Sequence record: NC_054916.1
DNA from: Escherichia phage vB_EcoM-G28
Strand: one strand, 5' to 3'
Length of the DNA: 64,000 bases
Shown here: piece after piece, positions 33,748 to 40,607 of the stretch
How positions within the stretch are numbered: position 1 is the first letter of the stretch
Layout of the letters: every line of letters starts with the position of its first letter
Translations under genes and position numbers: made by a program
The notes under the pieces: generated by a model
What the model was told of the DNA's origin: nothing
The model's database searches: none
The model's input: only the letters and a program-made list of their open reading frames with translations

Positions 33748-34926
33748 TTAAAAATATTTTTTAAAACTCATCATAACTTTATCATCAACATCATTATCAA
33801 TCTGTGCAACAAGGTAAGATGACAGTTCTACTTCTTGTGGCGCGGATTGAACATTATCAGAATTAAGATATTCACGAATCCAAGGATATGGATGTTTAAC
33901 CGGAGCATCGGTAATTGGGCATGGAAGACCGCACTGTTTCATACGAGATACAGTTAAGTAATCAATAAAGCTCCACATGCTATTTGTATTTAATCCAGGA
34001 ACATCGCCATCTTTAAATAAATGAACTGCCCAATCTTTTTCTTGGCGGTTAACTTCCATGAAAATATCAACTGCTTCTTGTTCACACTCTTGAGCAATTT
34101 TAACCCATTCATCGCCATCAGTACCGGATTGAAGTTGACGAATAATATATTGGGTGCCTTTAAGGTGAAGCTGCTCATCACGTGCAATGAACTTCATAAT
34201 CTTGGCATTACCTTCCATGATTTCCATGTTCTTATGGAAGTTAAAGGTACATGCAAAAGATACATAAAAACGAATAGCTTCTAAGGCATTAATAACGTGC
34301 AAACAGAGGTAAAGAGATTTCATTAGTGCTCGTTTAGCTTCGGCTTCTTGTTTAATAGCTCGATTTAAACGAAAAACAGCATCAGGAGATTCTTTAGCTA
34401 GTTCTGTAAATTCTTTAGCGTTTTCCCATTCACGGGTTTTAGTCAGAACATCATCATAATAACGTCCAATTGATTCAGCACGTTTCATGATAGCTTCATC
34501 TAATACAATCTCATCAAATACCTTTGACGGATCAGTATAAAGATTTCGCATGATATGTGTATATGAACGACTATGAATAGTTTCACTAAAAGTCCATGTA
34601 GCAACCCATGTATCAAGACTTGGGTCTGAAATTAATGACATAAGTACAGCAGATGGCGCACGACCCTGAATGCTATCTAGAAGTGATTGATACTTCAGAT
34701 TATTAGTAAAAATATCTTGCTGATATTGAGGAAGCTTGTTAAATTGTGCAGCATCCATCATTAAGTTTACTTCTTCAGGACGCCAGAAAAATGACAACTG
34801 CTTTTCGGTTAAATCTTCAAAAACTTTATGACGTTGAATATCATAACGCGCAATACCAAGACCTGAACCGAAGAACATAGGTTCTTTTAAAACATCAACT
34901 GGATTTGTATTAAAAACTGTAGACAT
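33748..34926 (-). CDS. nrdB: Ribonucleotide reductase small subunit, uninterrupted
   Basis: 392 aa from MSTVFNT; AGAGGA SD; diiron-centre motifs; no intron. Confidence 0.92.
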   Translation of the reverse strand: MSTVFNTNPVDVLKEPMFFGSGLGIARYDIQRHKVFEDLTEKQLSFFWRPEEVNLMMDAAQFNKLPQYQQDIFTNNLKYQSLLDSIQGRAPSAVLMSLISDPSLDTWVATWTFSETIHSRSYTHIMRNLYTDPSKVFDEIVLDEAIMKRAESIGRYYDDVLTKTREWENAKEFTELAKESPDAVFRLNRAIKQEAEAKRALMKSLYLCLHVINALEAIRFYVSFACTFNFHKNMEIMEGNAKIMKFIARDEQLHLKGTQYIIRQLQSGTDGDEWVKIAQECEQEAVDIFMEVNRQEKDWAVHLFKDGDVPGLNTNSMWSFIDYLTVSRMKQCGLPCPITDAPVKHPYPWIREYLNSDNVQSAPQEVELSSYLVAQIDNDVDDKVMMSFKKYF

Positions 34927-35657
34927 TAATTTTTCCTCTTTAAAATTCTGCCGCGTTTCCAACCTGGCGGTATAATATCATCTTTACCTATAAGCGTGCA
35001 TTCACTTCCATTATTAATCCATTTCTTACCGCGGATTCCTTTATAATCTCTTGGTTGTATTTTGTCAAACTTTGCATCAAGTTGATATGCCCAACGAAAT
35101 CCATAGGCATATTGAAATTTACCCTCAGCACAATATTTGATATTTGACCCGTTTCCATTAACTGATCTGGACGCTGCCGCAATAGAGTGAAAGGTTTCTA
35201 TGAAATCCCCATCTAATGAGAATTTATGTATTTCGATAGATGGGCATGCATACCTATTCACGTTTGATACATGTTGTTTAGTTTCGTTTTTATGATGCTT
35301 GCCTAACATTCCTCTAGGATGAGGATTATTTTTCCAATATTTCTTAAAGAAATCAGAATTAGCTTTAGCAAATAATTTTCTGTGCAAGCTATACAATCTG
35401 TTATTAATTCTATTACCAGCTTTATCTGTTGCCATTAACGTTAACGCAGAGGCAAGACCAAAATGGCCTTCATTTATCTTGCATAGTAATAGATGCGCTA
35501 TAAAATGTTCTCTAGCTGTTAATTCAACTAAATTTTCTTTATCATCAGAACCTCCCATGCATTTAGGGACTATATGATGTGTCTCTTTATATTCGGATAA
35601 AGGTTCCCGAGCCTGAGCTCGGGAAATTAGATCATTATAGATTTTTTGATAATTCAT
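34926..35657 (-). CDS. mobE: Free-standing HNH homing endonuclease between nrdA and nrdB (mobE-like)
   Basis: 243 aa; HNH motif HHIVPKCMGG...NLVELTAREHFIAH; stop overlaps nrdB start (TAATG). Confidence 0.75.
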   Translation of the reverse strand: MNYQKIYNDLISRAQAREPLSEYKETHHIVPKCMGGSDDKENLVELTAREHFIAHLLLCKINEGHFGLASALTLMATDKAGNRINNRLYSLHRKLFAKANSDFFKKYWKNNPHPRGMLGKHHKNETKQHVSNVNRYACPSIEIHKFSLDGDFIETFHSIAAASRSVNGNGSNIKYCAEGKFQYAYGFRWAYQLDAKFDKIQPRDYKGIRGKKWINNGSECTLIGKDDIIPPGWKRGRILKRKN

Positions 35658-38478: not shown

Positions 38479-38790
38479 TTATACCGCCATTTTTCCTTTC
38501 AAGACACCGTGGGATTGATAATCTTTGAGAACGAAATCTTTAGGTCTAAGTTTAAGAACATATTTTAATTGTTCTTTAGTAGAAAGATATCGGAATTTAT
38601 AAGGTAGACCACTTATTACCAGCTCACAAAGCTCTTTAGGTTCACGCCTCAAAATTTCTTTACATTGTTCTACGTGATTCATATAGATATGAGTATTACC
38701 ACCAGAAAATATCAAATCTCCTGGAATAAGATTACACATCTTAGCTACAATATGAACTAACGTAGCATATGATGCAATATTAAACGGTAG
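38479..38790 (-). CDS. td: Thymidylate synthase, exon 2 (103 codons)
   Basis: Continues TS sequence after splice junction ...FLG|LPFNIASYAT; exon 1 plus exon 2 give 286 aa. Confidence 0.9.
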   Translation of the reverse strand, partial: LPFNIASYATLVHIVAKMCNLIPGDLIFSGGNTHIYMNHVEQCKEILRREPKELCELVISGLPYKFRYLSTKEQLKYVLKLRPKDFVLKDYQSHGVLKGKMAV

Positions 38791-39235
38791 CATTATGTTC
38801 AGATAAGGTCGTTAATCTTACCCCGGAATTATATCCAGCTGCATGTCACCATGCAGATCAGACTATATCTCCAACTTGTTAAAGCAAGTTGTCTATCGTT
38901 TCGAGTCACTTGACCCTACTCCCCAAAGGGATAGTCGTTAGGCATTTATGTAGAACCAATTCCATTTATCAGATTTTACACGATAAGTAACTAATCCAGA
39001 CGAAATTTTAAAATGCCTTTTCCATCTCTTTTCAAAATCTTTAGCACTTCCTACATATACTTTATTGTTTAAAGTATTTTTAATCTGATAAATTCCGCTT
39101 TTCATAAATACCTCTTTAAATATAGAAGTATTATTAAAGGGCAGTCCTACAATTTAGCACGGGATTGTCTACTAGAGAGGTTCCCCGTTTAGATAGATTA
39201 CAAGTATAAGTCACCTTATACTCAGGCCTCAATTA
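38791..39235 (-). ncRNA. Group I self-splicing intron in td (445 nt), with internally deleted homing-endonuclease ORF
   Basis: Begins UAAUUGAGGCCUGAGUAUAAGGUG and ends ...GAACAUAAUG as in the T4 td intron; interrupts an otherwise continuous TS reading frame. Confidence 0.85.
38938..39105 (-). pseudogene. I-TevI remnant: 55-codon ORF fusing the GIY-YIG N-terminus to the C-terminal tail
   Basis: MKSGIYQIKNTLNNKVYVGSAKDFEKRWKRHFK joined directly to ISSGLVTYRVKSDKWNWFYINA; too short for a functional GIY-YIG enzyme. Confidence 0.75.

Positions 39236-40607
<1,372 letters not shown>

What the first reader, a model, noticed from the sequence alone, without database searches (positions are those of the whole stretch)
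38791..39235. td group I intron retained but its I-TevI homing endonuclease reduced to a 55-codon in-frame remnant
The thymidylate synthase frame is interrupted by a 445-nt insert whose ends match the T4 td intron (5' UAAUUGAGGCC..., 3' ...AACAUAAUG before exon 2 CUACCG). Inside it the only ORF (38938-39105) joins the first 33 residues of a GIY-YIG enzyme (MKSGIYQIKNTLNNKVYVGSAKDFEKRWKRHFK) directly to a 22-residue C-terminal tail (ISSGLVTYRVKSDKWNWFYINA). The join sits at the motif RHFK, which as I recall occurs twice in full-length I-TevI, so an in-frame deletion of about 190 codons between two short CATTTTAAA repeats is the likely cause. The intron would then be immobile but still splice-competent, a snapshot of homing-endonuclease decay.
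Basis: partly seen in the sequence, partly recalled or inferred. Interest (0 to 1): 0.72.

Follow-up and report, generated by a model that had tools for sequence, protein, structure and literature searches.

The report
td intron with gutted I-TevI gene
This T4-like phage keeps the self-splicing intron in its thymidylate synthase gene, but a 570-base deletion between two short repeats has destroyed the intron's homing endonuclease gene; this is a known kind of selfish-gene decay, and the same allele is already in several public phage genomes.

Summary
On the minus strand, td (exon 1 39236-39784, exon 2 38479-38790) is split by a 445-nt group I intron (38791-39235). This is the T4 td intron minus exactly 570 nt (190 codons) of I-TevI. 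The deletion lies between two CATTTTAAA copies, and one copy is kept at 39007-39015. The 55-codon ORF equals I-TevI residues 1-33 plus 224-245. It lacks most of the nuclease domain, the zinc finger and most of the DNA-binding domain. The ribozyme core helices I checked (P1-P9, P9.1, P9.2) are all intact, and the joined exons encode a 286-aa Td. So self-driven homing is lost and splicing is probably kept; both are inferred.

The allele is not unique. The same junction occurs in phages e11/2, F1, FN and FL18 and in about ten metagenome or read-archive contigs, on very different td exon backgrounds. A divergent I-TevI lineage shows an independent 570-nt deletion at the same repeats, so this is a recurrent hot spot. 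Shorter td introns (320, 262, 254 nt) also exist.

One unexpected point: all 13 distinct T4-type deleted alleles, and no full-length allele matched exactly, also carry a change inside the 8-bp I-TevI late-promoter box.

Verdict: a real but ordinary kind of feature, of modest interest.

The parts
39236..39784 (-). td (thymidylate synthase) exon 1, 549 nt (183 codons). The reading frame runs straight into the UAA formed by intron nt 1-3.
   Evidence: The joined exons give a 286-aa Td that is 280/286 identical to T4T Td.
38791..39235 (-). Group I (T4 td-type) intron, 445 nt. It equals the 1016-nt T4 intron minus 570 nt of I-TevI and minus 1 nt in the late-promoter box.
   Evidence: Alignments. 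Rfam RF00028 scores 40.9 bits, E 5e-9, against 40.3 bits for the genuine T4T intron. Helix check; MFE fold z = -3.3.
38479..38790 (-). td exon 2, 312 nt including the stop codon.
38938..39105 (-). 55-codon remnant of I-TevI: residues 1-33 (start of the GIY-YIG domain) fused in frame to residues 224-245 (end of the helix-turn-helix). The native stop codon lies in P6.
   Evidence: PDB 1MK0/1LN0 match residues 1-34 and 1I3J/1T2T match the last 27 residues. Pfam PF01541 and PF20987 match the ends only.
39007..39015 (-). Deletion junction: the single retained copy of the 9-nt direct repeat CATTTTAAA (codons H-F-K). T4T has copies at intron nt 222 and 792.
39129..39135 (-). Mutated I-TevI late-promoter box. 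Wild type is AATAAATA (T4T intron nt 101-108); here it is AATAATA, with one A of the AAA run lost ('delA104'). It lies within the operator-like stretch GGACTGCCCTTTAATAA...
   Evidence: Late-promoter consensus TATAAATA at -13 to -6 from PMC1524935; the operator overlapping the late promoter from PMC2988022. That this 8-mer is the mapped promoter is my inference.
39107..39132 (-). [quoted passage not shown] It is retained, and is 2 kcal/mol weaker than wild type in a local fold.
   Evidence: Its role is taken from PMC2988022 and PMC3014915.
38949..39151 (-). P6a (UGUAGGACU 39143-39151 paired with GGUUCUACA 38949-38957) closing the L6a loop, which is shortened to about 185 nt and holds the promoter, hairpin and ORF remnant.
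   Evidence: 9/9 pairs; also predicted in the MFE fold. P6 base pair 1 (G78-C865) is from PMC2729099.
39159..39242 (-). 5' core of the ribozyme. P1: exon CUUGGGU (39236-39242) with guide GCCUGAG (39221-39227), with U.G at the splice site. P2: 39204-39221. P3 5' strand: 39192-39197. P4/P5: 39159-39188.
   Evidence: The sequence is identical to T4.
38802..38936 (-). 3' core of the ribozyme. P7: 38931-38936 with 38861-38866. P7.1/P7.2 region. P3 3' strand: 38892-38897. P8: 38872-38891. P9: 38839-38856. P9.1: 38825-38836. P9.2: 38802-38822. The terminal G is at 38791.
   Evidence: Apart from the delA104 and G218A changes noted elsewhere, the window differs from T4T only at T4T nt 949 (C>A), where the window carries the common allele found in RB3, T6 and LZ2.

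Best explanation
This is a natural deletion allele of the phage T4-type td group I intron.

How it arose (inferred): replication slippage or recombination between two 9-nt direct repeats removed 570 nt, or 190 codons, of the intron-encoded homing endonuclease gene I-TevI. The repeats are CATTTTAAA, and they encode the His-Phe-Lys of the two Arg-His-Phe-Lys (RHFK) motifs.

What is left: a 55-codon in-frame stub without the nuclease active site, the zinc finger or most of the DNA-binding domain. The stub cannot cut the intron-less td site, so it cannot drive homing. It also cannot repress its own promoter.

Why the intron should still work: the deletion lies wholly inside the dispensable L6a loop, and the core helices I checked (P1-P9, P9.1, P9.2) are untouched. 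The RNA should therefore still self-splice and td should still be expressed.

Why it may persist (inferred): the intron still disrupts the I-TevI target site, so the phage stays immune to cutting by I-TevI from co-infecting phages.

What is shown and what is not: the deletion endpoints, the make-up of the stub, the intact core, the intact td, and the recurrence and spread of the allele are shown. Loss of nuclease activity, retained splicing and the slippage mechanism are inferred.
For: - Endpoints: exact 570-nt gap bounded by CATTTTAAA in alignments to T4, T4T, RB3, T6, U5, LZ2, HY03 and G10400. The repeats sit at intron nt 222 and 792 in every full-length allele examined.
- Stub: it equals I-TevI residues 1-33 plus 224-245. 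PDB and Pfam matches are confined to those ends.
- Core: the helices I checked are all complementary. P2, P4, P5, P6, P6a, P8, P9 and P9.1 are recovered by MFE folding, z = -3.3.
- Rfam: the score equals that of the bona fide T4T intron.
- Td: intact at 286 aa in the window and in all 14 deleted alleles.
- Independent assemblies: the same junction is in e11/2 (sequenced by 454), F1, FN and FL18 and in 10 ENA/Logan contigs. The protein cluster has 7 variants, with members recorded on 17, 37 and smaller numbers of contigs.
- Recurrence: in a lineage whose I-TevI is 78% identical, a deleted allele (L031) and a full-length allele (L036) differ by exactly 570 nt, between two AGACATTTTAA copies. They have no other difference over the first 988 nt.
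- Literature: the last 20 nt of the ORF contribute to P6a/P6/P7 and the rest lies in the P6 loop (PMC3073962). Constructs with shortened P6a regions fold and splice (PMC2729099).
Against: - No experiment: splicing, nuclease activity and mobility were not and cannot be tested here.
- Rfam's group I model is below its gathering score, although the same is true of T4's own intron.
- The shortened L6a loop brings new sequence close to the core and could in principle favour misfolding. I did not model tertiary folding or the P3/P7 pseudoknot.
- Whether the T4-type allele arose once and spread, or arose several times, is unresolved.
Confidence: 0.9

Rival explanations
1. Assembly artefact: a full-length I-TevI was collapsed across the two CATTTTAAA copies during assembly.
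For: Short repeats flank the gap. Read coverage for this window is not available.
Against: A 9-nt repeat is far shorter than any read or k-mer that would cause a collapse. The identical junction is present in independent genomes from different laboratories and platforms (e11/2 by 454 per PMC4241651; F1, FN, FL18) and in about 10 metagenome or SRA contigs. The deleted alleles carry their own private mutations (delA104, A101C) that were not found as exact matches in any full-length allele.
Confidence: 0.01
2. The short ORF is ancestral: this lineage never had the missing 190 codons, and full-length I-TevI arose by insertion.
For: None specific. ORF-less td introns of 254-263 nt do exist, so an ORF-less ancestor of the intron itself is plausible.
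Against: The stub is two non-contiguous pieces of a two-domain enzyme, each 100% identical to T4 I-TevI. It is joined precisely at a repeat that is duplicated in every full-length allele. Full-length homologues span 100% down to below 50% identity, whereas the stubs are near-identical copies of two of those lineages. L031 and L036 differ by the deletion alone over 988 nt, which points to a recent loss.
Confidence: 0.01
3. The 55-aa peptide is a functional small protein, for example a regulator or a dominant-negative partner of I-TevI, kept by selection rather than being debris.
For: The reading frame, Shine-Dalgarno sequence, start codon and native stop codon are all kept. The frame is open in all 14 alleles and in the independent L031 allele. 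It retains the segment I take, from recalled structure work, to be the HTH recognition helix.
Against: Being in frame is automatic, because both repeats encode H-F-K in the same frame. The peptide lacks helices 1 and 2 of the HTH, the minor-groove helix and two thirds of the GIY-YIG fold. Five different amino-acid changes occur among seven near-identical variants (T11I, S20N, K33T, V43I, K47N), which suggests relaxed constraint. All T4-type alleles have a damaged promoter box. Further-decayed 320-nt alleles have lost the start codon altogether.
Confidence: 0.04
4. The shortened intron no longer splices and td is a dead gene in this phage.
For: No direct splicing data. Rfam is below the gathering score. 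td is dispensable on thyA+ hosts (recalled knowledge).
Against: The core is identical to T4's. T4's own intron scores the same on Rfam. Td is intact at 286 aa in all 14 deleted alleles, on exon backgrounds that differ by up to 20%. That would not be expected of a pseudogene.
Confidence: 0.03

Closest known systems
Phage T4 td group I intron with intact I-TevI (T4, T6, RB3, U5, LZ2; 1016 nt)
   Same: Same insertion site in td. Same ribozyme core; 99.6-99.8% identity over the retained 445 nt. Same I-TevI leader, hairpin, start codon and stop codon.
   Different: Lacks 570 nt (I-TevI residues 34-223). Has a 1-nt deletion in the late-promoter box.
Phage T4 nrdB intron with internally deleted, defunct I-TevIII (the intact version is in RB3)
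   Same: A T-even group I intron that is retained and splices while its endonuclease gene carries an inactivating internal deletion. It can still be inherited through other agents (PMC2790892, PMC2988022, PMC1865063).
   Different: Different intron, host gene and nuclease family (HNH versus GIY-YIG). For the td allele, no neighbouring helper endonuclease has been shown.
The identical allele in GenBank phages e11/2 (vB_EcoM_112), vB_EcoM_F1, vB_EcoM_FN and FL18
   Same: Same 570-nt junction and same 55-codon ORF. The ORF is annotated 'homing endonuclease' or 'endonuclease I-TevI'.
   Different: Different td exon backgrounds (80-87% exon identity to the window). F1 and FN carry A101C instead of delA104. 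e11/2 has a U5-type 3' part of the intron. The papers I could read do not discuss the truncation (PMC4241651).
Shorter natural td introns without I-TevI: 319/320 nt (PYps55T, HP3, 235Ecol030PP), 262/263 nt (215Ecol030PP, BYEP01), 254 nt (HMD-9)
   Same: Same td site and same ribozyme core, with intact td exons annotated on both sides.
   Different: These lack the start codon and nearly all or all of the ORF. The 320-nt form is deleted from inside the promoter box to the second CATTTTAAA copy. The 254-nt form has a different P6a hairpin.
Cyclical model of homing-endonuclease gain, degeneration and loss (yeast mitochondrial introns; cited in PMC2988022)
   Same: Once the element is fixed at its site, the endonuclease gene decays while the intron persists.
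   Different: Here the decay step is a specific, repeatable microhomology deletion seen in two endonuclease lineages, not random erosion.

Membership tests
T4 td-type group I intron (subgroup IA2) | Inserted at the canonical td site (after nt 549 of the coding sequence), with the exon context CUUGGGU | CUACCG | tested here: met
T4 td-type group I intron (subgroup IA2) | P1 formed by the 5' exon end and an internal guide sequence, with U.G at the splice site, and a terminal G at the 3' end | tested here: met
   Exon CUUGGGU with guide GCCUGAG, U.G at -1; the intron ends AAUG.
T4 td-type group I intron (subgroup IA2) | Conserved catalytic core P3-P9, including the P7 guanosine-binding helix | tested here: met
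   P3, P4, P5, P6, P6a, P7, P8, P9, P9.1 and P9.2 are fully complementary and identical in sequence to T4.
T4 td-type group I intron (subgroup IA2) | Match to the Rfam group I intron model RF00028 at its gathering score | tested here: inconclusive
   40.9 bits against a gathering score of 50. The experimentally validated T4T intron gives 40.3 bits, so the threshold does not discriminate for this intron.
T4 td-type group I intron (subgroup IA2) | Self-splicing activity | not testable with these tools
   Inferred from the intact core and from intact Td in all carriers.
I-TevI / GIY-YIG homing endonuclease | Complete GIY-YIG catalytic domain of about 90 residues, including E75 and N90 | tested here: not met
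   Only residues 1-33 remain. PDB 1MK0 aligns over residues 1-34 of 97. The identity of the catalytic residues is from recalled literature.
I-TevI / GIY-YIG homing endonuclease | Linker with zinc finger, plus the C-terminal DNA-binding domain (minor-groove helix and helix-turn-helix, residues 130-245) | tested here: not met
   Only residues 224-245 remain. 1I3J aligns over the last 27 of 116 residues. There is no Pfam zinc-finger (PF22635) hit.
I-TevI / GIY-YIG homing endonuclease | Site-specific cleavage of intron-less td, and autorepression at the operator | not testable with these tools
   Predicted absent because the domains are missing.
Degenerate homing-endonuclease gene in a retained intron (as T4 I-TevIII) | Internal deletion relative to an intact orthologue at the same intron position in related genomes | tested here: met
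   An independent case is L031 versus L036.

The most novel reading that the evidence does not exclude
I-TevI carries a built-in, protein-constrained deletion hot spot: two RHF(K/N)-coding repeats 570 nt apart. That would make loss of the endonuclease recurrent and predictable.

Once the endonuclease, which is also its own repressor, is gone, the intron-internal late promoter may be disabled by selection. All 13 distinct T4-type deleted alleles carry one of two different changes inside the 8-bp promoter box: delA104 or A101C. The very recent independent deletion (L031) still has the intact box. The further-decayed 320-nt allele has lost the box altogether.

If this reading is right, an unrepressed promoter inside the td intron is costly to the phage, and I-TevI autorepression protects the host gene.
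Probability: 0.3. Interest if true: 0.5.

Novelty: new member of a known kind. Interest (0 to 1): 0.33.

Why it matters
Decay of a homing endonuclease inside a retained intron is textbook, for example T4 I-TevIII and the cyclical gain-loss model. This finding does not change any concept, and the allele is already deposited in GenBank under a misleading 'homing endonuclease' label.

Its value is as a clean natural series in the best-studied mobile intron:
- full length (1016 nt);
- a recurrent 570-nt microhomology deletion (446/445 nt);
- a promoter-to-repeat deletion (320 nt);
- ORF-less forms (262/254 nt).

All forms have an intact ribozyme core, and td exons are annotated on both sides of every one. 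The series allows a direct test of three questions: how fast an endonuclease gene is lost, whether the loss is repeatable, and whether the endonuclease's regulatory elements are then selected against.

It also flags an annotation error to correct: 55-aa stubs are being called homing endonucleases.

Tried and rejected
- Rfam at gathering threshold found nothing in the whole window. This is explained by the td intron's known sub-threshold score.
- Exact junction-pattern scans of IMG/VR, JGI metagenomes and GTDB genomes found nothing. Carriers were found only through the phage collection and the protein-indexed ENA/Logan contigs.
- Sandegren & Sjoberg 2004 (JBC) and the T4 genome review are not held. 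The four td sequences deposited as AY2621xx records, which I recall belong to the JBC study (RB3, T6, U5, LZ2), are all full length.
- Idea that the two promoter-box changes act through the ribosome-binding-site hairpin: rejected. delA104 weakens it (-14.0 versus -16.0 kcal/mol) and A101C strengthens it (-21.7).
- Idea that any loss of I-TevI function is quickly followed by promoter damage: not supported. Frameshifted full-length alleles from metagenomes (L022, L024, L033) keep the wild-type 8-bp box; L032, another frameshifted allele, has T107C inside it. The fresh L031 deletion also keeps an intact box. The frameshifted alleles may, however, be assembly errors or very young.
- An ungapped homing-site-versus-leader scan gives 14/20 identity at intron nt 84-106, but equal scores occur elsewhere in the intron. 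The operator position therefore rests on the literature (PMC2988022), not on my scan.
- My P7.1 assignment (CCCU/GGGG with a 2-nt loop) is not physically sensible, so I do not rely on it.

Full report
**1. What is in the sequence**

The feature lies on the minus strand. The region reads frd (39781-40362), td exon 1 (39236-39784), a 445-nt insert (38791-39235), td exon 2 (38479-38790), then nrdA.2, nrdA.1 and nrdA.
- The insert begins UAAUUGAGGCC and ends AACAUAAUG, directly before CUACCG.
- Its only sizeable ORF is 38938-39105, 55 codons, translating to MKSGIYQIKNTLNNKVYVGSAKDFEKRWKRHFKISSGLVTYRVKSDKWNWFYINA.
- The joined exons encode a 286-aa thymidylate synthase that is 280/286 identical to that of T4T.
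- The window as a whole is a Tequatrovirus about 95% identical to RB3-like phages. It is not itself a record in the phage collection.

**2. The deletion**

I aligned the window to T4 (NC_000866.4), T4T, RB3, T6, U5, LZ2, HY03 and G10400.
- There is one gap of exactly 570 nt. In every full-length allele, CATTTTAAA occurs at intron nt 222 and 792. The window keeps a single copy at 39007-39015.
- RHFK occurs at I-TevI residues 30-33 and 220-223. The stub is exactly residues 1-33 plus 224-245.
- Solved structures and Pfam models match only those ends. 1MK0/1LN0 (catalytic domain) cover residues 1-34 and 1I3J/1T2T (DNA-binding domain) cover the last 27 residues. PF01541 and PF20987 match, with no zinc-finger hit.
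- Being in frame is automatic, because both repeats encode H-F-K in the same frame.
- Among exact repeats of 9 nt or more in the T4 intron, three pairs lie wholly in the ORF (194/227, 222/792, 315/450). A fourth, 12-nt pair (26/613) would remove the ribozyme core. The observed deletion is the largest one that spares the core.

**3. The ribozyme is untouched**

The literature places the ORF in the P6/L6a loop, with only its last 20 nt contributing to P6a, P6 and P7 (PMC3073962). P6 base pair 1 is G78-C865 (PMC2729099).
- The deletion (T4 nt 222-791 or equivalent) is entirely inside that loop.
- I located P1, P2, P3, P4, P5, P6, P6a, P7, P8, P9, P9.1 and P9.2 in the window. All are fully complementary.
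- Outside the loop, the window differs from T4T at one position (nt 949). There it carries the allele common to RB3, T6 and LZ2.
- An unconstrained MFE fold recovers P2, P4, P5, P6, the 9-bp P6a, the ribosome-binding-site hairpin, P8, P9 and P9.1, with z = -3.3.
- Rfam's group I model scores 40.9 bits, below its threshold of 50. The genuine, self-splicing T4T intron scores 40.3 bits, so this is not evidence of a defect.
- Splicing competence is therefore well supported, but it remains an inference.

**4. It is a circulating allele, not a singleton or an artefact**

An 80-nt query across the junction finds full-length matches in six phage records. These are e11/2 = vB_EcoM_112 (two records), vB_EcoM_F1 (two records), vB_EcoM_FN and FL18. 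Each is annotated with a 168-nt 'homing endonuclease'.
- The exact 55-aa protein is indexed in 31 blocks of public assemblies. Its 90% cluster holds seven variants, one of them on 37 contigs.
- Ten ENA/Logan contigs were retrieved.
- Across 13 distinct deleted alleles, the retained intron is 98-100% identical (median 99.6%). The td exons are only 79-100% identical (median 86%) and are T4-, RB3-, T6- or U5-like.
- e11/2's intron has a U5-type 3' part behind a T4-type 5' part.
- The allele has therefore been reassorted among backgrounds by recombination, has arisen more than once, or both.
- The e11/2 genome paper does not mention the truncation (PMC4241651).

**5. The deletion is recurrent**

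A search with the stub found a second 55-aa protein that is 91% identical. Its locus, L031, belongs to a divergent td-intron lineage with compensatory changes in P2.
- The corresponding full-length gene (L036; I-TevI 78% identical to T4's) differs from L031 by exactly 570 nt, between two AGACATTTTAA copies. There are no other differences over the first 988 nt.
- This is a second, recent and independent occurrence at the same pair of RHF-coding repeats.
- The RHF motif is conserved at both positions in most homologues, so protein-level constraint maintains the microhomology.

**6. Other stages of decay exist**

A search with the full T4T intron shows further natural length classes.
- 319/320 nt (PYps55T, HP3, 235Ecol030PP): deleted from inside the late-promoter box to the second CATTTTAAA copy.
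- 262/263 nt (215Ecol030PP, BYEP01): the whole L6a loop is gone.
- 254 nt (HMD-9): a different P6a hairpin and a compensatory A-U to U-A change in P8.
- Frameshifted full-length alleles also occur in metagenomes (L022, L024, L032, L033).
- The window's allele is one intermediate in this series.

**7. An unexpected linked change**

All 13 distinct T4-type deleted alleles carry a second change within AATAAATA (T4 intron nt 101-108).
- Nine, including the window, lack one A of the AAA run ('delA104', intron 445 nt).
- The other four have A101C (intron 446 nt, or 445 nt in L006, which also lacks U129). None of eight full-length alleles aligned has either change.
- In the phage collection, 166 records hold this leader and 137 are exactly wild type.
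- Exact matches to the delA104 form are only e11/2 (two records) and FL18. Exact matches to the A101C form are only F1 (two records) and FN. These are precisely the records that carry the deletion.
- The T4 late-promoter consensus is TATAAATA at -13 to -6, with A or T at -13 (PMC1524935). The I-TevI operator overlaps its late promoter (PMC2988022). That this 8-mer is the promoter is my inference from its sequence and position.
- The two changes have opposite effects on the ribosome-binding-site hairpin (-14.0 and -21.7 versus -16.0 kcal/mol). The shared target therefore looks like the DNA element rather than the hairpin.
- The fresh L031 deletion still has the intact box.
- This pattern is compatible with deletion first and promoter damage later, either by selection once the autorepressor is lost or by drift once the promoter is useless.
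- Two hits in 8 bp, jointly present in every older allele, are suggestive. I rate selection at about 0.3.

**8. How it most likely works**

- Shown: the endpoints, the composition of the stub, the intact core and intact td, and the spread and recurrence of the allele.
- Inferred: slippage or recombination between the repeats removed the gene. The stub is inactive as nuclease and as repressor. The intron still splices. The intron cannot home by itself, yet it still blocks the I-TevI target site, so its carrier is immune to cleavage by I-TevI from co-infecting phages.
- Movement between backgrounds would be by ordinary recombination, which is frequent in T4, or by co-conversion driven by neighbouring endonucleases, as shown for the T4 nrdB intron and mobE (PMC2790892).
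- Some carriers (L009, L011) have a GIY-YIG gene about 0.2 kb downstream of td. The window does not.

**9. Comparison and verdict**

This is a member of the td group I intron family with a degenerate I-TevI. It is the same kind of thing as T4's deleted I-TevIII.
- It is not an I-TevI enzyme: the defining domains were tested and are absent.
- The phenomenon is known and the allele is already in GenBank.
- What is new here is the documentation of its recurrence at a conserved microhomology, its place in a decay series, and its linkage to promoter-box changes.
- Interest is modest.

Noticed in passing
window 39129-39135 (minus strand); the same site in L001, L003, L004 and L006-L015: Every T4-type allele with the 570-nt deletion also has a change inside the I-TevI late-promoter box AATAAATA. 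It is either loss of one A (window, FL18, e11/2 and six contigs) or A101C (F1, FN, L006, L009, L010). No full-length record in the phage collection matches either variant exactly.
   Followed up: yes
L031 1071-1560 versus L036 1-1076: In a divergent lineage (I-TevI 78% identical to T4's), a deleted and a full-length allele differ by exactly 570 nt, between two AGACATTTTAA copies, and by nothing else over 988 nt. This is an independent, recent repeat of the same deletion, with the promoter box still intact.
   Followed up: yes
L025, L026, L030 (320/319 nt); L027, L028 (262/263 nt); L029 (254 nt): Public T4-like phages carry still shorter td introns without any I-TevI start codon. The 320-nt class is deleted from inside the promoter box to the second CATTTTAAA copy, so it may derive from the 445-nt allele. 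The 254-nt class has a different P6a hairpin.
   Followed up: partly
L003 (phage e11/2), intron: Its intron is chimeric. The 5' part, with delA104 and the deletion, is T4-type. Six SNPs at T4 nt 842-933 are U5-type, as are its td exons. This suggests recombination between intron lineages at or near the junction.
   Followed up: partly
L028 and L029 (P8); L031 (P2): Compensatory base-pair changes are present in the ribozyme. P8 changes from CAACUUG/CAAGUUG to CAUCUUG/CAAGAUG. P2 changes in L031 from GUAUAAG/CUUAUAC to GAUGUAAG/CUUACAUC. These give natural covariation support for those helices.
   Followed up: no
L006, intron end and leader: This deleted allele also has A>G three bases before the 3' splice site (AACAUAGUG), synonymous changes at the first two exon 2 codons (CUUCCA), and a 1-nt deletion between the Shine-Dalgarno sequence and the AUG.
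   Followed up: no
L009 3858-4589 and L011 3783-4514 (minus strand in the locus): In some carriers, a 243-aa GIY-YIG/NUMOD3 gene on the opposite strand sits between nrdA.2 and nrdA, about 0.2 kb downstream of td. It is a candidate helper for co-conversion of the defunct intron. It is absent from the window, which has nrdA.1 there.
   Followed up: no
window 33748-35657: A 243-aa ORF with a NUMOD1 domain (34926-35657) lies between nrdA and nrdB, the usual slot of mobE/hef-type free-standing endonucleases. nrdB (33748-34962) is uninterrupted, so this phage has no nrdB intron.
   Followed up: partly
L022, L024, L032, L033: Full-length I-TevI genes are split by single-base frameshifts in metagenome contigs (+C at nt 657, -G at 464, -1 at 310, +T near 294). 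L022, L024 and L033 keep a wild-type promoter box; L032 has T107C within it. These could be real early decay or assembly errors.
   Followed up: partly
L002 (NC_000866.4), intron nt about 93: The T4 reference record has one extra T (GGACTTGCCC), which gives a 1017-nt intron. T4T and all other full-length td-intron records examined here have 1016 nt. It is probably an old sequencing discrepancy.
   Followed up: no
protein P0116 (phage ph0021 / WL-3): [quoted passage not shown] This hints at another rearrangement involving I-TevI sequence.
   Followed up: no
GenBank and RefSeq annotation of L001, L003, L004: The 55-aa stub is annotated 'homing endonuclease' or 'endonuclease I-TevI', and td is annotated as two separate thymidylate synthase genes rather than as a spliced gene. 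This annotation is misleading and worth correcting.
   Followed up: no
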